Positions 1 to 30,121 of a DNA stretch of 32,279 nucleotides are shown piece after piece. The DNA is from Bacteroidia bacterium. Lineage in GTDB: Bacteria > Bacteroidota > Bacteroidia > Bacteroidales > VadinHA17. A program made the translations under genes and the position numbers. Positions within the stretch are counted from its first letter, which is position 1. Every line of letters begins with the position of its first letter. The stretch is taken from NCBI GenBank assembly GCA_026391215.1, contig JAPLDX010000049.1:1-32279 (forward strand), written 5' to 3'. Under the pieces are notes generated by a model. The model was not told the DNA's origin. It searched no databases and was given only the letters and a program-made list of their open reading frames with translations.

Positions 1-2560
1 AGTTACAGACGAGTCAGATAACTGCACGGCAGCACCGGTAGTAGCGTGGGTAAGTGATGTAAGTGACCTTAACACATGTCCGGAGGTCATCACGAGGACG
101 TACTCAGTAACGGATGCATGCGGGAACAGTATCAATGTAACGCAGACTATCACCGTAGATGACATTACAGCACCGATCATCACCGGCTGCCTGGCTAATA
201 TAACTGTATCCAATGATGCAGGAGACTGTTCGGCGGATGTTTCATGGGTGGCTCCTTCTGCAACAGATAATTGCGGATCAGTAACTCTTACAAGCACTTA
301 CGATCCGGGTGATACATTCCCGATAGGTACAACTACCGTGACATATACAGCTACAGATAACTGCGGAAATACGGCAACATGTACATTCACTATAACAGTA
401 ACTGATACTGAAATACCGGCAATAGCATGTCCTGCTGATATTATTGTAAATAACGAAGCAGGACTATGCGGTGCAATTGTTAATTTCATTGCTCCCATCG
501 GAACAGATAATTGTCCCGGAGCAACCACAATCCAGACTGCTGGTAAGGTAAGCGGGGCATTATATCCTGTCGGAACAACTGTAAATATGTACCAGGTAAC
601 CGATGCATATGGAAATACAAATACCTGCAGCTTCAATGTTACAGTCGTAGATGCTGAAAATCCTAATATAGTATGTCCGGGAAATCTAAGCGTTACCGGA
701 GTATGCAGTACAATAGTGACTTATGTTACTCCGGTCGGTACAGATAATTGCCCGGGTGCAACAACTGTTCAGACTGCTGGTCTTCCAAGCGGATCAACAT
801 TTACTGTTGGAATAACTACCAATTCATTTATGGTTACTGATGCTGCAGGACATACAGCGACTTGCAGCTTCACTGTTGAAGTCATCGATAATACTCCTCC
901 GGTAATTACCTGCCCGGCTGATATAGTTGTAAATAATACTTCCGGAACCTGCAGTGCAGTAGTTACTTATACAGCACCTGTTGGTACAGATAACTGCCCA
1001 GGAGCAACAACAGTTCAGATCGCAGGACTTGCCAGCGGTTCAACATTTCCTGTAGGAACAACCGTTAATACCTTCAGGGTGACCGATGGTTACGGTAATA
1101 CTGCACAATGCAGCTTCAATGTCACTGTAAATGATATTGATCTTCCAGTGATATCATGCCCTGCAGACATAAATGTTAATAACGATGCAGGGATTTGTGG
1201 TGCCGTTGTAACTTACGTGGCACCTGTTGGAACGGATAACTGTCCGGGAGCAATAACTACTCTGACCTCAGGACTTGCAAGCGGATCAGTATTCCCGGTT
1301 GGAACAACAACCAATGTGTTTACTGTTGTCGATGGTTCCGGAAACAGCGCCAGCTGCAGCTTTACTGTAACTGTCGTTGATAATACTTTGCCGGTTCGTG
1401 ATCTGTCACCTCTGCCAGATGTAACTGATGAGTGTTCAGTAACATCACTTATTGCACCAACAGCTTCAGATAACTGTGTCGCGGTGATAACAGGAACACA
1501 TAATGCATCCTTACCGATTACGACACAGGGTACAACCGTTGTCACCTGGACCTATGACGATGGCAATGGCAATATCTCTACACAGACACAGAATGTGGTG
1601 ATCGATGATGTCACAGCGCCAGTAACTGCAGCATTGACTGATGTAACAGGTGAATGCACAGCAACTATTGCAGTAATTCCGACAGCAACAGATAATTGTT
1701 CAGGTGTAATCACAGGTACAACAAGCGATCCTCTGACCTACAACACCCAGGGTACACATACTGTTACCTGGAGCTATGACGATGGCAATGGCAATATCTC
1801 TACACAGACACAGAATGTGGTGATTGATGATGTCACAGCACCAGTAACTGCAGCATTACCTGATGTAACTGGTGAATGCACAGCAACTATTGCTGTAACT
1901 CCGACAGCAATAGATAATTGTTCAGGTGTTATTACGGGTACAACTGCCGATCCTTTGACCTACAACACCCAGGGTACACATACTGTTACCTGGAGCTATG
2001 ATGACGGCAATGGCAATATCTCTACACAGACACAGAATGTGGTGATCAATGATATTACTGCACCGACACCTGATAGCCCGGGTCTGTCTGATGTTACAGC
2101 GGAGTGTACTGTAACATCTCTAACTGCACCGACAGCCACAGATAACTGCGGAGGCGCTGTAACTGTAAGCAATAATGCCACCTTGCCAATAACAACACAG
2201 GGAACAACAGTAGTTACCTGGACGTATGATGACGGAAACGGGAATACAGCAACACAGACTCAGAATGTTGTACTTGATGATATTACAGCACCAGTACCTG
2301 ATGTTGCAGTTCTTGCTGACGTCAATGCAGCATGCTCGGTTGCAGCTCTGACAGCACCTACAGCAACTGATAATTGTGCCGGAACAGTCACCGGAACACA
2401 TACAGCGACGTTGCCGATCACAGTCACAACATTAGTCACATGGACGTATGATGATGGTAACGGCAATACTGTAACACAGACTCAGAATGTAGTTATAGCA
2501 GATGTTACAGCACCAGTTCCTGATGTGGCAACCCTGACTGAATTACATTACCTGTTATAA
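1..2560 (+). CDS. Giant surface adhesin, HYR-domain/Cys-rich Ig-like repeat region (5'-partial; frame open from base 2; N-terminal part of the gene continued at 2542..4035)
   Basis: Frame 2 has no stop from window start (VTDESDNCTAAP...) to 2560. Tandem HYR-like units (P.I.CP.DI.V....G.C.A.V.Y..P.GTDNC...FPVGTT...TD..GN...CSF.VTV) are followed by 74-aa PTATDNC...WTYDDGNGN repeats. Confidence 0.88.
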   Translation, partial: VTDESDNCTAAPVVAWVSDVSDLNTCPEVITRTYSVTDACGNSINVTQTITVDDITAPIITGCLANITVSNDAGDCSADVSWVAPSATDNCGSVTLTSTYDPGDTFPIGTTTVTYTATDNCGNTATCTFTITVTDTEIPAIACPADIIVNNEAGLCGAIVNFIAPIGTDNCPGATTIQTAGKVSGALYPVGTTVNMYQVTDAYGNTNTCSFNVTVVDAENPNIVCPGNLSVTGVCSTIVTYVTPVGTDNCPGATTVQTAGLPSGSTFTVGITTNSFMVTDAAGHTATCSFTVEVIDNTPPVITCPADIVVNNTSGTCSAVVTYTAPVGTDNCPGATTVQIAGLASGSTFPVGTTVNTFRVTDGYGNTAQCSFNVTVNDIDLPVISCPADINVNNDAGICGAVVTYVAPVGTDNCPGAITTLTSGLASGSVFPVGTTTNVFTVVDGSGNSASCSFTVTVVDNTLPVRDLSPLPDVTDECSVTSLIAPTASDNCVAVITGTHNASLPITTQGTTVVTWTYDDGNGNISTQTQNVVIDDVTAPVTAALTDVTGECTATIAVIPTATDNCSGVITGTTSDPLTYNTQGTHTVTWSYDDGNGNISTQTQNVVIDDVTAPVTAALPDVTGECTATIAVTPTAIDNCSGVITGTTADPLTYNTQGTHTVTWSYDDGNGNISTQTQNVVINDITAPTPDSPGLSDVTAECTVTSLTAPTATDNCGGAVTVSNNATLPITTQGTTVVTWTYDDGNGNTATQTQNVVLDDITAPVPDVAVLADVNAACSVAALTAPTATDNCAGTVTGTHTATLPITVTTLVTWTYDDGNGNTVTQTQNVVIADVTAPVPDVATLTELHYLL
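1545..2050 (+). repeat. Intragenic near-identical tandem repeat, period 222 bp (74 aa)
   Basis: The string (T/C)GGCAATGGCAATATCTCTACACAGACACAGAATGTGGTGAT starts at 1561, 1783 and 2005. More diverged copies flank it. Confidence 0.9.
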
Positions 2561-21745: not shown

Positions 21746-22978
21746 TCAGTCCTTGGCAAAATGCTTGTAACATGTAAGATTGTGCCCCATTTTATTTGCT
21801 TTTGTCTCAAGATAGAACTGATTATGAGGATTGGGTTTAATAATAAGGGGAATAGTCTCAACTATTTGTATGCCATACCCTTCAAGCCCTGCACGTTTAA
21901 CCGGATTATTTGAAATAAGCTTTATTTTTCCAAGTCCAAGCTCCCTCATTATATTAGCTCCAACGCCATAATCCCTTTCATCCTCGCCGAATCCCAGTTT
22001 CAGGTTTGCCTGGACAGTATCCATACCTTCATCCTGGAGGCGGTAAGCTTTTATTTTGTTAAGGAGTCCAATGCCCCTGCCTTCCTGGCTCAGGTAAATG
22101 ACCACTCCTTTGCCTTCTTTCTCAACCATTTCCATTGCCTTGTGAAGCTGCGGGCCGCAATCACATCTCAGTGATCCGAAGATGTCGCCGGTAAAACAGG
22201 AGGAATGAACGCGAACCATTACAGTCTCATCTTTTGTCCATGTTCCTTTTACCAGTGCACAGTGTTCCTGCCCATTACTGATCTGCCTGAATGGAATGAA
22301 CTCGAAGTCTCCGCTTACAGTTGGCAGCATAACTCTTTCTCCTTTCTGTAAAATAGATTCCCTTTCGAGTTTATATTTAATAAGGTCGCGGATAGTTATT
22401 ATTTTGATGTCGAACTTTTTCCGGAGCTTTACCAGGTCATGAAGCCTTGCCATTGAACCGTCATCATTCATAATCTCAACAAGGGCACCTCCCGGATTAA
22501 GGCCTGCAAAGCGTGTAAGGTCAACAACAGCTTCAGTATGACCGGCTCTTCTCAATACACCTTTTGCTTTTGCCTTCAGCGGGAATATATGGCCTGGACG
22601 ACCGAGATCTGTCGGTCTTGTTATAGGATTTACCAGAGATTTTATCGTAAGCGCCCTGTCCTTTGCTGATACACCTGTAGATGTTTCTTCATTTATAAGA
22701 TCAACCGATACTGTAAACTGTGTTTCATGGAACGAAGTATTGTTCCCCACCATCAGATCGAGGTCAAGCTCTTCACATCTTTCTTCGGGCAATGCGGCAC
22801 AGATAAGACCGCGTCCGTGTTTTGCCATGAAATTGACAGTCTCCGGAGTTATCAGTTCAGCGGCACAGATGAAATCTCCCTCATTTTCACGATCTTCATC
22901 GTCAACCACGATCAGCAGCCTGCCATTCCTTATGTCCTCAATAGCTTCCTCAATAGTGTTTAATCTGATATTATTCAT
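21746..22978 (-). CDS. ribBA: Bifunctional DHBP synthase / GTP cyclohydrolase II
   Basis: [37 protein letters not shown] and QEGRGIGL motifs. ATG at 22978. Confidence 0.97.
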
Positions 22979-24482
22979 TTTGTTCTGTTTTATTATCAGG
23001 ATTAACTGTCTTCCCAAAGAATGTAATCCTGTATATAGAATCTTTTATCCTGCGTAAAAATGAAAGGTATGTTTCAATATTCATTATTACTGAATCTGTT
23101 GCTGCCTTATATGTAAGAAACAGTCCGATAGGCAGCAGTATATATGATGATGCCCACATTCCTGCAACTCCGCTGACAAGGTCTTCCTCAACAAGTTTCT
23201 CGCCAGATAATGAGATAACATACCAGATCACAAAGAAAAAAATCGATATTACAGCAGGAGTTCCAAGTCCTCCTTTTCTTATTATAGCGCCAAGGGGAGC
23301 TCCGAAAAAGAAGAAGATAAGGCAAGCAACAGGAAGAGTCAGCTTCCTGTGCCATTCAACCTCATACCTTTTATTACTCCTCGATTCATATTTCAGTGAC
23401 TCCAGATTATCAGTAAGAGCCAGGTTCGCATCCTTTAATTGTTCAATAGTTCTTGACAGTGTTACCCTCCTGTCTGAAATTGAGAGGGAGTCAAAAACCG
23501 CTTGCGGGTTAAATGTACTGATTGCTGTCCGTGATTTCAGTGAATAGTTTTTCTCTGATAAATCTTTTGATCCCAGCGGTTCAACGAAAATTTTCGATTG
23601 GGCGAATTCGCCAACCCATGACATTTGTTTTCCGGCATATCTTCCGCCTAGGGAATCAACGAAATGGGCAAGCTGTGACATATCCAGGCTCCAGGAAGTA
23701 GATGTAAACATCTCATTACCACTGCGTTCCAGGTCGAATCCGGTAAGACCAAGTACAATTGTCTGCTCTTTGAAAGTGTCCTTCCTGGAGGGATATCTTT
23801 TCTGATCAACTCCCGGATTTTCTTCTTCCATTTCATAGAACGATTCACCATTGTATAGGGTCATAATCAATGCTGTTTCATCCGGTGTGATCTTTATATA
23901 ACCTGAATCAGCACATATTACCGCAATGTTGCCCTTTTTGTCGCGATGGTCATAGACAATCAGTCCATCAAGACGGGTGGAAAAAGGATCTTTAGATGTT
24001 ATTTTGATGCTAAAGCCATCTATATCGTTATTGAACGAACCGGCCTGAAGATTAATATCTGGACGTTTGCGCCTTATATCTAAAAGCAGAGTTCTGGCCT
24101 GCCTGTTTGAATAGGGGAGAACAAAATTTGAAAAAAGAAAAGACACAAGAACCAGGAAAGATATCAGCACTATCAAAGGTCTCATTATTCTCTGAAGGGG
24201 AATCCCTGATGATTTTAGTGCCGTAAGTTCGCTGAATTCGCCCATGTTGCCGAATGTCATCAGAGAGGCCAGAAGGACTGCCAGTGGAAGCGCGGTTGGG
24301 ACAAAGGAAAGCGAGAACTGGAACAAGAGCTCCGAAATTATCTTAAGATCAAGCCCTTTGCCGGCAAGGTCATCGATATACATCCACAGGAACTGCAAAA
24401 GGAGGATGATAAGCACAATAAAAAATGTGAGTATCAGCGGGCCGATAAATGATCTCAAGACGAATTTGTCAACCTTCTTCAC
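22971..24482 (-). CDS. LptF/LptG family LPS export permease
   Basis: Three N-terminal and three C-terminal TM helices; [10 protein letters not shown]...R and [12 protein letters not shown] motifs. Confidence 0.92.
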
Positions 24483-24543
24483 TGTCTGGCTGAATTTGGG
24501 AGCGAAAATACTCGAATTTTGGGAAAAAACATAACTGATTAGC

Positions 24544-24592
24544 GGTGTAGTGGTATAATGGTATAACGGTATAATGGTAAATATGGTATGAT
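24544..24592 (+). repeat. Tandem octamer array GGTRTART (left arm of inverted pair)
   Basis: GGTGTAGT GGTATAAT GGTATAAC GGTATAAT GGTAAATAT GGTATGAT. Confidence 0.9.
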
Positions 24593-24610
24593 CAGATAAT
24601 GGGAAGAAGA

Positions 24611-24964
24611 CTAATGACTACGGGCAGCTATTAATTTTGAAAGCATTACAGAAATCTTCCTGCATTCATCTTTCAGAGCATTAGCATCATCAGCATTTAA
24701 ATAGCCAATTTCTTGAGCAATGATAATCTGGGTCAATAATTCAGCAGAAGAACCTTTAGCTATATAAAAGTGTTTTATTGATTGTTTATTGGTTTCCAGT
24801 TCATCACCTTCAGCAATGTTAGAAGGAATACTTACAGAAGACCGTTGAATCTGATCTTTGAAACCAAAGTCTTTGGAAAAAGACTGAGATTTTGTTATTC
24901 TATAAATGTTTACAGCGAGCATTTTGGCAGTTTGCCAAACACGAAGTTCTTGAAAATTTCCCAT
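24611..24964 (-). CDS. Four helix bundle protein (23S rRNA intervening-sequence protein / TIGR02436-like, Avd-related fold)
   Basis: 117 aa with F..L.VWQ.A..L...IY..T......DFG..DQI.RSSVSIPSNIAEG.......F..IAKGS..E..TQ...A...GY signature. Confidence 0.92.
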   Translation of the reverse strand: MGNFQELRVWQTAKMLAVNIYRITKSQSFSKDFGFKDQIQRSSVSIPSNIAEGDELETNKQSIKHFYIAKGSSAELLTQIIIAQEIGYLNADDANALKDECRKISVMLSKLIAARSH

Positions 24965-25018
24965 GATACAGCGAGATTAAAATATTAGCACTAAAAATTT
25001 AAAACCAGATTCTCGAAA

Positions 25019-25109
25019 ACCATTATACCACTAAACCACTAAACCACTAAACCACTACACCACTACACCACTACACCACTACACCACTACACCTTTGCTC
25101 CTTTGTGCC
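25019..25109 (-). repeat. Tandem octamer array (right arm of inverted pair)
   Basis: + strand: ACC ATTATACC (ACTAAACC)x3 (ACTACACC)x5, then degenerate TTTGCTCC TTTGTGCC. Reverse complement of the left-arm units. Confidence 0.93.
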
Positions 25110-25110
25110 T

Positions 25111-25491
25111 TTATATTCCCAACGCCCTTTTCAGATCTTCAATCTGACTATTCCACAAGCTGATGGCATCCTCTTTTTCTTCCGGTTCCGCGAAATCGGT
25201 TATAAGGAGGGCGAGGCTGCCGCTGAGTTCTTCAATATTGATTTTGAATTCAAAATAATTAGACTCTTCATCATCCGCATCGAGCCATTCAAACCTGACG
25301 AATTTATTTTCCTTAAATGCTGAAAGTCTTGCCTTAAGCTCTGACTTATTCCAGATGAAAGTAAAGATATCCCCTTCTACATTAACATCTTCAGCGAACC
25401 ACTCACCAAGTCCTTCCGGTGTGCTGAGCCGGGAGAAAAGGACTTTTGGAGAACAATTCAATGTATATTCCAGTTCGTACTTCAGTCTCAT
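25111..25491 (-). CDS. START-like (SRPBCC) domain protein, Bacteroidota type
   Basis: 126 aa with LSTP.GL.EWFA..V....F.F.W and L.ITDFA......W..QI..LK..LG pattern. Confidence 0.82.
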   Translation of the reverse strand: MRLKYELEYTLNCSPKVLFSRLSTPEGLGEWFAEDVNVEGDIFTFIWNKSELKARLSAFKENKFVRFEWLDADDEESNYFEFKINIEELSGSLALLITDFAEPEEKEDAISLWNSQIEDLKRALGI

Positions 25492-29330: not shown

Positions 29331-29360
29331 CCTGACGCCCGATGCCTGACGCCTGATGCC
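29331..29360. repeat. Tandem heptamer array CCYGAYG x4
   Basis: CCTGACG CCCGATG CCTGACG CCTGATG CC abuts the stop codon of the 29360..30121 gene. Confidence 0.8.
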
Positions 29361-30121
29361 TAAAGCTCCTTCATCTTTATATTCCTGAACCACACTTTAC
29401 TGCCGTGATTCTGAAGCGAGATATGCCCTTCATCATATTTCCCGTAATCAGGATAATCTGCCCATTTCCCGCTGTTGCGAAGTTTTATCCATTCTTCAGA
29501 ATTTTTAACATACCTGACTGTAACTGAGTCGTTAAGAATAAATGTCACATCATTGCCATTCACAACGATCAAAGCCCGGTTCCACTCGCCGACCGGTTTG
29601 TAAGGTTTGACTAACGGAGGATTCATTGCGTAATTGGCTCCGCTTACCTGCCATACTTCCAGAGTGTCAGGCCAGCCTTCCTGGTCAATAATCTGGAACT
29701 CAGGACCTGTTTCATAAGGATAATGATAAAGGGTATCTTCAGCAACCTGGAAAATAAGACCGCTGTTGGCCTTTTTTGCCAGCTTGAATTCAGCATAAAA
29801 TGCATAACTCCTGTAAACTTTATCGGTTATGATGTCCTGGCTTTCAGCCCCACCCTCGGTGTTCATGGTTAATGTTCCATCTTCAATGGTCCAGCAATCG
29901 GGGAACTTACCCATATTATAACCATGCCATCCGTTTGTGGTCGTACCATCAAAGAGAAGCTGCCATCCCAGCTTCTTTTCCTTATTAGTTAAAGTGTTAG
30001 GTGCTGCTGTTTTATCAATTTCTGAATAAAGCGACACAGGATCCTTGCTTGGTTCCGATCCACAGGAACATAACAGGATCAGCAGAAGACCAATAAATGG
30101 TTTTGTTATTGATTTTTTCAT
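29360..30121 (-). CDS. DUF1080 (3-keto-disaccharide hydrolase-like) lipoprotein
   Basis: LCSC lipobox; GWQLLFDG....GW, NSG, GPEFQI.D, GEWN and GHI.LQNHG..VWFRNIK motifs. Confidence 0.9.
   Translation of the reverse strand: MKKSITKPFIGLLLILLCSCGSEPSKDPVSLYSEIDKTAAPNTLTNKEKKLGWQLLFDGTTTNGWHGYNMGKFPDCWTIEDGTLTMNTEGGAESQDIITDKVYRSYAFYAEFKLAKKANSGLIFQVAEDTLYHYPYETGPEFQIIDQEGWPDTLEVWQVSGANYAMNPPLVKPYKPVGEWNRALIVVNGNDVTFILNDSVTVRYVKNSEEWIKLRNSGKWADYPDYGKYDEGHISLQNHGSKVWFRNIKMKEL

What the first reader, a model, noticed from the sequence alone, without database searches (positions are those of the whole stretch)
24544..25109. Four-helix-bundle gene enclosed by mirror-image tandem octamer arrays: an IVS-like cassette in an mRNA context
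Seen: in the minus-strand transcript the START-like stop codon is followed at once by GGCACAAA GGAGCAAA (GGUGUAGU)x5 (GGUUUAGU)x3 GGUAUAAU, then the 117-aa gene, then the complementary AUCAUACC AUAUUUACC AUUAUACC GUUAUACC AUUAUACC ACUACACC. Unit order is mirrored (GGTGTAGT outermost, GGTATAAT inner), so the arms can form an imperfect ~40-bp duplex looping out ~430 nt. The gene is AT-richer than its neighbours (30-35% GC in two 60-nt lines counted vs 47-60% in two flanking lines). There is no transposase or obvious target duplication. Established: this family was first found inside 23S rRNA intervening sequences, which are bounded by a stem and cut out by RNase III, and it shares a fold with the RNA-binding DGR accessory protein Avd. 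Inference: a small mobile or excisable unit whose repeat arms define an RNA (or cruciform DNA) substrate, possibly bound by its own protein and inserted just after host stop codons. I know of no mechanistic description of such a system.
Basis: partly seen in the sequence, partly recalled or inferred. Interest (0 to 1): 0.85.

Follow-up and report, generated by a model that had tools for sequence, protein, structure and literature searches.

The report
Hairpin-bounded IVS-protein gene cassette
A small four-helix-bundle gene, of the family first found inside 23S rRNA intervening sequences, sits in the loop of a long hairpin built from mirror-image 8-base tandem repeats, and the same layout surrounds relatives of this gene in many bacterial phyla.

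Summary
On the minus strand the START_2 stop codon is followed by an 8-mer array. Then come a 117-aa PF05635 gene, the complementary array and lptF. The arms close a stem of about 43 bp (z -6.1).

It is not a one-off. In 73 of 105 PF05635 loci from many phyla the two flanks are reverse-complementary beyond the 95th percentile of mismatched controls, against 18 of 346 other small ORFs of this genome. The arms are 7-9-nt tandem units that differ between loci. The 5' arm is G-rich in 64 of 72 loci. The gene is AT-richer than its neighbours in 109 of 111 loci.

At this site the cassette is old and under selection: an ortholog in one congener gives dN/dS 0.06. It was not found in 27 other congeners. 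One has a clean empty site and five keep gene-less arms.

An unrelated family, PDDEXK_3/GxxExxY, has the same kind of arms in 24 of 29 loci.

Best reading: the same kind of element as ORF-bearing 23S rRNA intervening sequences, living in mRNA spacers, probably cut out of host transcripts by RNase III. RNA processing and mobility are untested. My paper searches found no description of this layout.

The parts
25111..25491 (-). Upstream host gene, START_2 / AHSA1-like, 126 aa. Its TAA stop lies 1 nt before the 5' arm.
   Evidence: Pfam PF19569, E 9.7e-38. ORF list. Found in 55 of 61 genus genomes.
25020..25109 (-). 5' arm, G/U-rich and without C from 25093 inward: GGCACAAA GGAGCAAA (GGTGTAGT)x5 (GGTTTAGT)x3 GGTATAAT GG. 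The two outer units resemble the gene-less arms found at this site in congeners.
   Evidence: Sequence. TRF period 8, 9.4 copies. Inverted repeats I1-I8. Congener spacers.
24965..25019 (-). 55-nt AT-rich leader inside the loop. The blocks AGTGCTAA and TCGCTG are conserved in the G125 ortholog although synonymous sites are saturated. Possibly a promoter or an RNA element; not resolved.
   Evidence: Alignment of the two orthologous spacers. The strict Bacteroidetes -7 box TAnnTTTG occurs in only 6 of 68 loci, with 3.2 expected.
24611..24964 (-). [quoted passage not shown]
   Evidence: PF05635 E 1.6e-34. TIGR02436 and NF008912. PDB 2gsc E 1.1e-13. AlphaFold2 model with pLDDT 94.2 and four helices. 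Foldseek: 2gsc TM 0.91, 2rld 0.80, Avd 4dwl 0.80. dN/dS 0.056 against the G125 ortholog.
24544..24592 (-). 3' arm, C/A-rich: ATCATACC ATATTTACC ATTATACC GTTATACC ATTATACC ACTACACC. It is complementary to the 5' arm, largely through G:U pairs in the sense RNA.
   Evidence: Sequence. TRF period 8, 4.8 copies. Arm alignment shows 16 G:U-type and 1 A:C-type mismatches. Duplex energy is -91.0 kcal/mol for the sense strand and -62.7 for the antisense.
24483..24543 (-). Host spacer before lptF, conserved in congeners with or without the cassette. It holds a TAnnTT(T/C)G-like box, which I take to be the lptF promoter; the consensus is recalled, not tested.
   Evidence: Spacer comparison across 28 loci.
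22971..24482 (-). Downstream host gene lptF/lptG-family permease, 503 aa, followed by ribBA.
   Evidence: PF03739 E 1.4e-72; PF00926 and PF00925 for the next gene.

Best explanation
The feature is one copy of a widespread, hairpin-bounded single-gene cassette. A PF05635 four-helix-bundle gene lies in the loop of about 420 nt of a stem whose arms are locus-specific tandem 7-9-nt units. The arm on the 5' side is G/purine-rich and the arm on the 3' side is its complement.

It is the same kind of element as the ORF-bearing intervening sequences of 23S rRNA. Here it lives in a spacer between protein-coding genes.

Proposed working (inferred, not shown):
1. The cassette is transcribed with, or through from, the upstream gene.
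2. In that transcript the two arms pair into a duplex of about 40-45 bp.
3. The duplex is a substrate for the host's RNase III.
4. The cut frees the cassette RNA from the host message, so the insert is tolerated wherever RNA continuity is not needed: rRNA helix tips, tRNA operons, operon spacers.
5. Unit slippage lengthens and shortens the arms. A stem made of repeats still pairs after such slips.

At this site the cassette is an old, vertically kept resident whose protein is under purifying selection. What the protein does is unknown. Its Avd-like fold suggests nucleic-acid binding.
For: Shown here.

1. Anatomy and fold of the window copy.

2. The layout is general.
- In 73 of 105 usable PF05635 loci the upstream flank aligns to the reverse complement of the downstream flank with a score above 30, the 95th percentile of 400 mismatched flank pairs. 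In 60 of 105 it exceeds the 99th percentile.
- The 105 come from 111 loci; 6 were dropped for short or N-containing flanks. L090 duplicates L004. The loci span Bacteroidota, Clostridia, Vibrio, Verrucomicrobiota, Planctomycetota, Desulfobacterota, Patescibacteria and others.
- Only 18 of 346 other 90-160-aa ORFs of this genome exceed 30.

3. Arm properties.
- Tandem arrays lie in both flanks in 60 of 104 loci, in one flank in 32 and in neither in 12. Periods are 7, 8 or 9, and the period is the same on both sides in 55 of 60.
- The units differ between loci while the two arms of one locus match.

4. The layout is tied to the direction of transcription.
- The 5' arm has G>C in 64 of 72 loci, C>G in 5 and equal counts in 3.
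- The upstream neighbour is co-directional in 90 of 103 loci and both neighbours in 70 of 97. The genome baselines are 0.71 and 0.52.
- The arm starts at a median of -4 nt from the upstream stop codon.

5. Cassettes sit inside housekeeping operons: between an Fe-S_biosyn gene and sufB, between thiolase and acyl-CoA dehydrogenase, and between two tRNA-Leu genes.

6. In the window the sense RNA pairs far better than the antisense: -91.0 against -62.7 kcal/mol, with 16 G:U-type and 1 A:C-type mismatches.

7. RNase III is encoded in this genome.

8. The orthologous cassette in G125 gives dN/dS 0.056.

From the literature (PMC4990558, abstract and passages read): the Coxiella 23S IVS is 428-444 nt long, is closed by a 28-bp terminal-repeat stem, carries a gene of this family, has tandem heptamers before the start codon whose number varies between strains, and is cut out by RNase III in vitro.
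Against: - There is no RNA evidence of any kind here.
- Across 72 loci the arm mismatches are not biased towards G:U in the sense RNA: 188 G:U-type against 222 A:C-type, and 27 loci against 34.
- The sense duplex is the more stable one in only 14 of 31 loci. Selection on a sense-strand RNA stem should favour G:U, so complementarity may instead be kept at the DNA level or by array turnover. Alignments of repeats are ambiguous in register, which blunts this test.
- Cleavage between cistrons could hurt downstream expression, yet cassettes sit in the suf and fad operons.
- The G125 ortholog folds with only a modest z-score of -1.7.
- 32 of 105 loci do not pass the arm test. Some have arms beyond 170 nt or arms of only 2-3 units.
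- The loci come from related genomes and are not independent.
Confidence: 0.55

Rival explanations
1. The arms work at the DNA level. They fold as a hairpin or cruciform on single-stranded or supercoiled DNA and serve as the substrate for moving, copying or deleting the cassette. The enzyme is supplied in trans, for instance by the nuclease-family cargo of sister cassettes or by host recombination. The mirror-image arrays are kept alike by hairpin-templated repair.
For: - Patchy presence at one orthologous junction: the gene was found in the window and in G125, and in 0 of 27 other congeners, one of which has a clean 57-nt empty spacer.
- Gene-less arms remain at the same site in 5 of 27 congeners.
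- The same units recur at unrelated loci. GGTRTAGT occurs at three places in G125, and GTCTTGCAG-type arrays at several places in the own genome.
- The gene is AT-richer than its neighbours in 109 of 111 loci.
- There is no G:U excess in the arms.
- PD-(D/E)XK-family genes sit in the same kind of arms.
Against: - No target duplication and no recombinase in or beside the cassette.
- Arm sequences differ between loci, so no fixed end sequence exists for an enzyme to recognise.
- The window copy is orthologous to the G125 copy at saturated synonymous divergence.
- I found no near-identical copies at different loci, but I did not search for them systematically.
- The strong tie to transcription direction is not predicted by a purely DNA-level role.
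Confidence: 0.2
2. The arrays are binding sites for the cassette's own oligomeric protein. One unit is bound per subunit, giving autoregulation or a ribonucleoprotein particle. The complementarity of the arms is secondary.
For: - The units have a regular 7-9-nt period with a median of 4.45 copies.
- The fold matches Avd, which sits on RNA in solved DGR particles: 4dwl and 8ube at TM about 0.8.
- Solved homologs 2gsc and 2rld crystallise with five chains each.
- The strand polarity of the arms would fit recognition of one strand.
Against: - The unrelated PDDEXK_3 genes have the same kind of arms in 24 of 29 loci.
- Gene-less arms and solo arrays are common.
- Close protein relatives have different units. 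L001 and L012 are 61% identical, yet their units are GGTGTAGT and GGTAYGC.
- The truncated copy in this genome keeps its arms.
Confidence: 0.1
3. The arms have no function of their own. Slippage-prone intergenic hairpins are a general feature of these genomes, and small dispensable genes merely survive best inside them.
For: - This genome has 211 short-period arrays, and 133 of them lie between ORFs.
- About eight are gene-less hairpins with short loops.
- In one operon of G001 almost every spacer is filled with such arrays.
Against: - 70% of PF05635 loci have matching arms, against 5% of other small ORFs.
- The rule holds in phyla with very different genomes.
- The same period occurs on both sides in 55 of 60 loci.
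- Arm type is conserved between orthologs although synonymous sites are saturated.
Confidence: 0.1

Closest known systems
ORF-bearing intervening sequences (IVS) of 23S rRNA (Leptospira, Coxiella, Xanthomonas)
   Same: - Same protein family in the loop (PF05635).
- Similar size: 566 nt here, 428-444 nt in Coxiella.
- Closed by terminal inverted repeats that form a long stem.
- AT-richer than the host.
- Tandem heptamers with variable copy number just before the start codon in Coxiella.
(PMC4990558, abstract and passages read.)
   Different: - This copy lies between protein-coding genes, not in an rRNA helix.
- Its stem is made wholly of tandem 8-mers.
- RNase III cutting is shown for the rRNA elements and untested here.
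- In Coxiella the ORF is reported as decaying and unexpressed. Here it is under purifying selection.
Avd, the accessory protein of diversity-generating retroelements
   Same: Four-helix-bundle fold: TM 0.80-0.87 to 4dwl, and matches to chains of the DGR ribonucleoprotein 8ube and 8ub7.
   Different: - Only 12% sequence identity.
- No reverse transcriptase was found anywhere in this 98.9%-complete genome.
- I saw no template or variable repeat pair.
REP sequences with their RAYT gene (REPIN-RAYT systems)
   Same: A single small gene flanked by inverted, hairpin-forming intergenic repeats, with gene-less copies scattered through the same genome. This genome has such a gene, Y1_Tnp at C100:45451-45897.
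   Different: - RAYTs are HUH tyrosine transposases that recognise one conserved REP sequence per family (recalled).
- Here there is no transposase, and the repeat unit differs at each locus.
Short tandemly repeated repetitive (STRR) heptamers of heterocystous cyanobacteria
   Same: Intergenic tandem heptamers, many copies per genome, proposed to form stem-loops. This is recalled; my one search on it returned nothing useful.
   Different: As far as I recall they have not been described as enclosing a gene or as linked to PF05635. I did not examine cyanobacteria.
Group I introns and inteins carrying homing endonucleases (analogy only)
   Same: A selfish insert made harmless by removal at the RNA or protein level, carrying a small cargo gene. 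A nuclease-family cargo (PDDEXK_3) occupies sister cassettes.
   Different: There is no self-splicing and no ligation. Removal would depend on a host RNase and would leave the host RNA in two pieces.

Membership tests
PF05635 / TIGR02436 (23S rRNA-intervening sequence protein, four helix bundle protein) | Score above the curated cut-off of the family models | tested here: met
   PF05635: 118.7 bits against a cut-off of 33.8. TIGR02436: 114.4 against 24. NF008912: 134.6 against 124.
PF05635 / TIGR02436 | Four-helix-bundle fold like the solved members | tested here: met
   AlphaFold2 model with pLDDT 94.2 and four helices. Foldseek: 2gsc TM 0.91, 2rld TM 0.80.
23S rRNA intervening sequence (IVS) | Inserted in a helix of the 23S rRNA gene | tested here: not met
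   It lies between START_2 and lptF. Rfam finds no rRNA in 24300-25300.
23S rRNA intervening sequence (IVS) | Bounded by inverted repeats that form a long stem enclosing the ORF | tested here: met
   Arms of 39-40 nt, 80-82% complementary. They form the closing stem of the minimum-free-energy fold, z -6.13.
23S rRNA intervening sequence (IVS) | Cut out of the precursor RNA by RNase III | not testable with these tools
   No RNA run was listed. An RNase III gene is present at C133:20555-20929.
Diversity-generating retroelement (Avd role) | Adjacent reverse transcriptase with a template/variable repeat pair | tested here: not met
   No RVT_1 match in the whole genome. I did not search for a template or variable repeat pair.
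DNA transposon or MITE | Transposase (or a trans-acting one with matching ends) and a target-site duplication | tested here: not met
   The cassette holds one ORF, which is PF05635. Comparison with the empty site in L033 shows no duplicated target. Arm sequences differ between loci.
Anti-phage defence system | Match to a known defence protein model | tested here: not met
   No PADLOC family matched at E <= 0.01.

The most novel reading that the evidence does not exclude
PF05635 genes and GxxExxY/PDDEXK_3 genes are alternative cargoes of one pan-bacterial class of non-ligating intervening elements.

- Such an element can settle at any point of a transcript where RNA continuity is dispensable: tips of rRNA helices, tRNA operons, spacers just after stop codons.
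- It is cut out by host RNase III at a stem built from locus-specific tandem 7-9-mers.
- The arrays are made, measured and kept mirror-symmetric by an element-linked process, not by chance slippage.
- The many gene-less inverted arrays and solo G-rich arrays after stop codons are its footprints or non-autonomous derivatives.
- The classical 23S rRNA IVS would then be only the first-noticed special case.
Probability: 0.3. Interest if true: 0.9.

Novelty: new variant of a known kind. Interest (0 to 1): 0.75.

Why it matters
What the intervening sequences of 23S rRNA are, and what their ORF does, has been open since the early 1990s (as recalled, and as stated in passages of PMC4990558).

This result reframes the question. 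The ORF family carries its stem with it wherever it lives, in many phyla, mostly outside rRNA. The stem has a peculiar and conserved construction of tandem 7-9-mers with a fixed strand polarity. An unrelated nuclease-family gene uses the same housing.

The problem therefore becomes testable in ordinary cultivable bacteria, for example in Flavobacterium species that carry a copy between an Fe-S_biosyn gene and sufB.

It also gives annotators a rule: look for inverted short-period arrays around these genes. And it identifies a large class of intergenic tandem repeats that may otherwise be dismissed as noise.

Tried and rejected
1. Sense-RNA wobble test. I expected more G:U-type than A:C-type mismatches in the arms if the sense transcript is the selected form. 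This holds for the window (16 against 1). It does not hold across 72 loci (188 against 222) or in duplex energies (sense more stable in 14 of 31). RNA and DNA levels therefore stay unresolved.

2. RNAduplex on 150-nt flanks as a measure of arm specificity. It was noisy because G-rich 5' flanks pair loosely with any C-rich 3' flank. The cognate partner was the best one in 14 of 29 loci. I replaced it with a Watson-Crick-based local alignment.

3. Internal promoter. The strict Bacteroidetes -7 box TAnnTTTG (consensus recalled) occurs between -70 and -8 in only 6 of 68 Bacteroidota loci, with 3.2 expected. It is not a general feature.

4. Remnants of the gene in the other START-lptF spacers. tblastn with about 100 family proteins gave nothing convincing; the best hit had E 5e-4 in a tiny database and lay on the opposite strand.

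5. Known RNA family: none. The only Rfam hit was a chance snoRNA match at E 0.29.

6. Defence system: no PADLOC match.

7. DGR role: no reverse transcriptase in the genome.

8. Expression data: no RNA holder was listed.

9. My first neighbour-strand count took the nearest ORF and was wrong even for the window. I redid it using the dominant ORF.

10. Papers.
- Searches for the family name with 'tandem repeats', for 'four helix bundle protein' with 'tandem repeats' and 'inverted', for TIGR02436, for 'intervening sequence protein' with 'heptamer', and for 'S23 ribosomal protein' with 'repeats' and 'cyanobacteria' each returned 0 papers.
- PF05635 returned one DGR review (passages read).
- GxxExxY was found in 3 papers, 2 of them listed; the passage I read was irrelevant.
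- The STRR search returned one unrelated paper.
- Subscription journals and supplements were not searchable. The layout may be described there, or in database family comments that I could not see.

Full report
1. THE OBSERVATION

Reading the minus strand, the START_2 gene (25491-25111; PF19569, E 9.7e-38) ends with TAA.

- One base later the 5' array begins: GGCACAAA GGAGCAAA (GGTGTAGT)x5 (GGTTTAGT)x3 GGTATAAT (25109-25022).
- A 55-nt AT-rich leader follows.
- Next comes a 117-aa ORF (24964-24611; PF05635, E 1.6e-34).
- Then the 3' array: ATCATACC ATATTTACC ATTATACC GTTATACC ATTATACC ACTACACC (24592-24544).
- After 61 nt of spacer comes lptF (24482-22971; PF03739), followed by ribBA.

Tandem Repeats Finder reports the two arrays as period 8, with 9.4 and 4.8 copies. 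The repeat finder gives inverted arms of 39-40 nt, 80-82% complementary, 440-446 nt apart.

Folded as RNA, the arms form the closing stem. The energy is -165.8 kcal/mol, against -129.7 +/- 5.9 for 100 shuffles (z -6.13); none of the 100 shuffles folds as well.

2. THE PROTEIN

- Besides Pfam, it matches TIGR02436 'four helix bundle protein' and NF008912 above their cut-offs.
- It matches the solved structures 2gsc (E 1.1e-13) and 2rld.
- An AlphaFold2 model built on 27 relatives has pLDDT 94.2 and four helices.
- Foldseek ranks 2gsc (TM 0.91) and 2rld (0.80) first. Next come the DGR accessory protein Avd (4dwl, TM 0.80, 12% identity) and chains of the DGR ribonucleoprotein.
- It matches no PADLOC defence model.
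- The genome, 98.9% complete, has no RVT_1 reverse transcriptase, so the protein is not acting as a DGR Avd.

3. THE LAYOUT IS A FAMILY TRAIT

The genome holds one other PF05635 match, a truncated copy on contig C107. It too lies between inverted tandem arrays, but of another unit: AAAGTC-type upstream and (GACTTTACA)n downstream.

PF05635 is found in 37 of 41 related genomes, with up to 18 matches per genome. I read the flanks of the best locus from each. I also read 80 loci from a scan of one genome per species across prokaryotes.

Those 80 loci come from Bacteroidota, Clostridia, Vibrio, Pseudoalteromonas, Verrucomicrobiota, Planctomycetota, Desulfobacterota, Patescibacteria, Bipolaricaulota, Acidobacteriota and others.

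Most show a tandem 7-9-mer array upstream and its reverse complement downstream, with a different unit at each locus.

Quantified:

- 105 of the 111 loci were usable. Six were dropped for short or N-containing flanks, and L090 duplicates L004.
- I aligned the 170-nt upstream flank against the reverse complement of the downstream flank. The median score is 43, against 19 for 400 mismatched pairs.
- 73 of 105 loci exceed the controls' 95th percentile (30), and 60 exceed the 99th.
- Comparing the two flanks in direct orientation gives a median of 20.
- The same test on all 346 other non-overlapping 90-160-aa ORFs of this genome gives 18 above 30.
- TRF finds arrays in both flanks of 60 of 104 loci, in one flank of 32 and in neither of 12. 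Periods are 7 (107 arrays), 8 (35) or 9 (12). The period is the same on both sides in 55 of 60.
- The loop between the arms has a median of 422 nt.

4. STRAND AND CONTEXT RULES

- The 5' arm has G>C in 64 of 72 loci with significant arms, C>G in 5 and equal counts in 3. It is purine-rich in 62 of 72.
- The upstream neighbour is on the same strand in 90 of 103 loci, the downstream one in 87 of 105, and both in 70 of 97. The baselines in this genome are 0.71 for a pair and 0.52 for both.
- Where an upstream co-directional ORF ends nearby, the arm starts at a median of -4 nt from its stop codon, and within 10 nt in 27 of 63.
- The gene is AT-richer than its flanking genes in 109 of 111 loci, by a median of 9.3 points.
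- Hosts include housekeeping operons. In L083 the cassette lies between an Fe-S_biosyn gene and sufB. In L120 it lies between thiolase and acyl-CoA dehydrogenase. In L021 it lies between two tRNA-Leu genes on its own strand.
- By eye, the same junctions recur in several Flavobacteriia and Cytophagia loci.

5. HISTORY AT THIS SITE

START_2 followed by lptF is conserved in the genus. Of 30 loci fetched, 28 hold both genes.

- Among the 27 loci other than the window, none has the gene.
- The relative with the most similar neighbours is L033 (START 86%, LptF 84% identity). It has a clean 57-nt spacer.
- Five loci (L041, L047, L048, L051, L060) have gene-less inverted arrays of GGCGCAAY-type units directly after the stop codon. 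L035 and L052 have traces. These units resemble the window's two outermost units.

A pattern search for the window's unit in 151 genus genomes found three genomes, the window's own among them. One of the other two, G125, holds the orthologous START-cassette-lptF locus.

- START is 82% identical, the cassette protein 84%, and LptF 71%.
- The two genes differ at 71% of synonymous sites but only 11% of non-synonymous sites, giving dN/dS 0.056.
- The arms are of the same GGT..../....ACC type but differ in unit number and order.
- Two blocks of the leader are conserved.

So the cassette here is old, inherited and selected.

If G066 (the genome of L033) is truly closer to the window's genome than G125 is, the cassette was deleted precisely in that lineage. 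This rests on two proteins only and is an inference.

6. ARMS WITHOUT THE GENE, AND OTHER CARGO

- The own genome has 211 arrays of period 6-11, and 133 of them lie between ORFs.
- Under a strict test, 24 form inverted pairs. About eight of these are short-loop hairpins with no gene, several sharing the unit GTCTTGCAG. The same unit flanks PF05635 genes in two relatives (L030 and L031).
- In a 19.5-kb stretch of G001, almost every spacer of a long same-strand gene string is filled with 7-8-mer arrays. It holds four PF05635 genes among AAA_14/DUF4143, AbiEii and glycosyltransferase genes.
- Solo G-rich arrays directly after stop codons occur in G125 (L146 and L151) and in the window itself at 29331-29361.

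The other small ORFs of this genome with strongly matching flanks are one PDDEXK_3/GxxExxY gene, four DUF559-like genes and one IS200-like Y1 transposase. I scanned one of the four DUF559-like genes against Pfam; the other three look alike by eye.

I followed up the first family. Of 29 usable PF13366 loci from relatives, 24 score above 30 and 22 above 36. Their arms are again tandem 8-10-mers such as CACAGAG, CACAAAG or CGCAAAG. These genes are AT-richer than their flanks in 29 of 30 loci. Their arm polarity is weaker, with G>C in 12, C>G in 7 and equal counts in 5.

The housing is therefore not specific to the four-helix-bundle protein.

7. HOW IT MOST LIKELY WORKS

The nearest described thing is the ORF-bearing 23S rRNA IVS. 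According to PMC4990558 (abstract and passages read), the Coxiella element has these features:

- It is 428-444 nt long.
- It is closed by a 28-bp stem of terminal inverted repeats.
- It encodes a protein of this family.
- It has three or four tandem heptamers before the start codon, whose number varies between strains.
- It has lower GC than the genome.
- It is cut out by RNase III in vitro.

That paper also cites the old idea that the IVS is a mobile element whose ORF serves its mobility.

The window's cassette matches every structural point except the location. I therefore read it as the same kind of element living in an mRNA spacer. I infer the following steps:

- Read-through transcripts fold the arms into a duplex of about 40-45 bp.
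- The host RNase III, which this genome encodes, cuts that duplex.

The tie to transcription direction and the G:U-rich pairing of the window's own arms fit an RNA role.

Against it, the arms across loci show no excess of G:U over A:C (188 against 222). No RNA data could be had. A DNA-level role of the hairpin in gain, loss or homogenisation of the cassette therefore remains a serious rival. The two are not exclusive.

Binding of the arrays by the cassette's own protein is made less likely by the shared housing with PDDEXK_3 genes and by the many gene-less arms.

8. NOVELTY

That PF05635 proteins occur in 23S IVSs and share a fold with Avd is known. Three points appear to be new:

- The family, in and out of rRNA, is housed between mirror-image tandem 7-9-mer arrays of locus-specific sequence and fixed polarity.
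- These cassettes sit directly after stop codons inside operons.
- GxxExxY genes share the housing.

I found none of this in the papers I could search. That library lacks most subscription journals, supplements and database comments, so the absence is not proof. I rate it a new variant of a known kind.

9. LIMITS

- The loci come from related genomes and are not independent. The P values overstate.
- Alignments of tandem repeats are ambiguous in register.
- Neighbour strands come from a longest-ORF rule, not from a gene caller.
- The scan kept the 80 best of 596 confirmed relatives, all carrying one conserved peptide pattern, so it samples one part of the family.
- Nothing here shows RNA processing, protein binding or movement.

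Noticed in passing
own genome C101:36580-36957 (L174); relatives L155-L184: Genes of the unrelated PDDEXK_3 / GxxExxY family (PF13366, TIGR04256) are enclosed by the same kind of inverted tandem 8-10-mer arms. Of 29 loci, 24 score above the control threshold. The units are of the type CACAGAG, CACAAAG or CGCAAAG, and resemble the window's two outer units GGCACAAA GGAGCAAA.
   Followed up: partly
own genome C16:1601-2005, C38:110804-111181, C111:62401-62793, C88:11366-11764: Four small genes are flanked by G/C-run inverted repeats that each contain their own hairpin. These are not tandem arrays. The C111 gene matches PF04480 (DUF559); the other three look alike by eye. They seem to be a different kind of hairpin-flanked small gene.
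   Followed up: partly
own genome C100:45451-45897: An IS200-like Y1 transposase gene (PF01797) lies between short REP-like palindromes, as in REP/RAYT systems.
   Followed up: partly
window 29331-29361: A solo tandem array lies directly after the stop codon of the gene 30121..29360; on the minus strand it reads GGCATCA GGCGTCA GGCATCG GGCGTCA. No complementary partner is nearby. The unit is the one that forms the 5' arm of PF05635 cassettes in L063, L065 and L066.
   Followed up: partly
L142 (G001:C71:7500-27000): In a long same-strand gene string, almost every spacer is packed with one to six different 7-8-mer arrays. The string holds four PF05635 genes next to AAA_14/DUF4143 ATPases, an AbiEii gene and glycosyltransferases. 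PF05635 genes also cluster within a few kb in other relatives (G007:C45, G010:C1, G005:C8).
   Followed up: partly
L021 1302-1960: A PF05635 cassette sits between two tRNA-Leu genes (anticodons CAG and GAG) on the same strand. This is a stable-RNA operon setting, halfway between the rRNA and mRNA cases.
   Followed up: partly
L043 and L054 (START-lptF spacers of G010 and G020): The same junction holds a different insert of about 500 nt that is shared by two congeners and has its own internal inverted repeats. It contains no PF05635 gene. I did not identify it.
   Followed up: no
window 24965-25019 and L012, L018, L025, L063, L065, L066, L153: The subfamily closest to the window's gene has a longer leader with conserved blocks (AGTGCTAA-like, and TCGCTG just before the ATG). 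The blocks persist between orthologs although synonymous sites are saturated. This could be a promoter or an RNA element.
   Followed up: partly
window 1540-2064: A 222-nt tandem repeat with 2.4 copies and 92% matches, probably a repeated domain of a large coding gene. It is unrelated to the finding.
   Followed up: no
L146 and L151 (G125:C2), L147 (G153:C33): Arrays of the window's own unit type (GGTRTAGT, up to about 12 copies) occur at other loci of congeners directly after stop codons. They have no partner arm and no PF05635 gene.
   Followed up: partly
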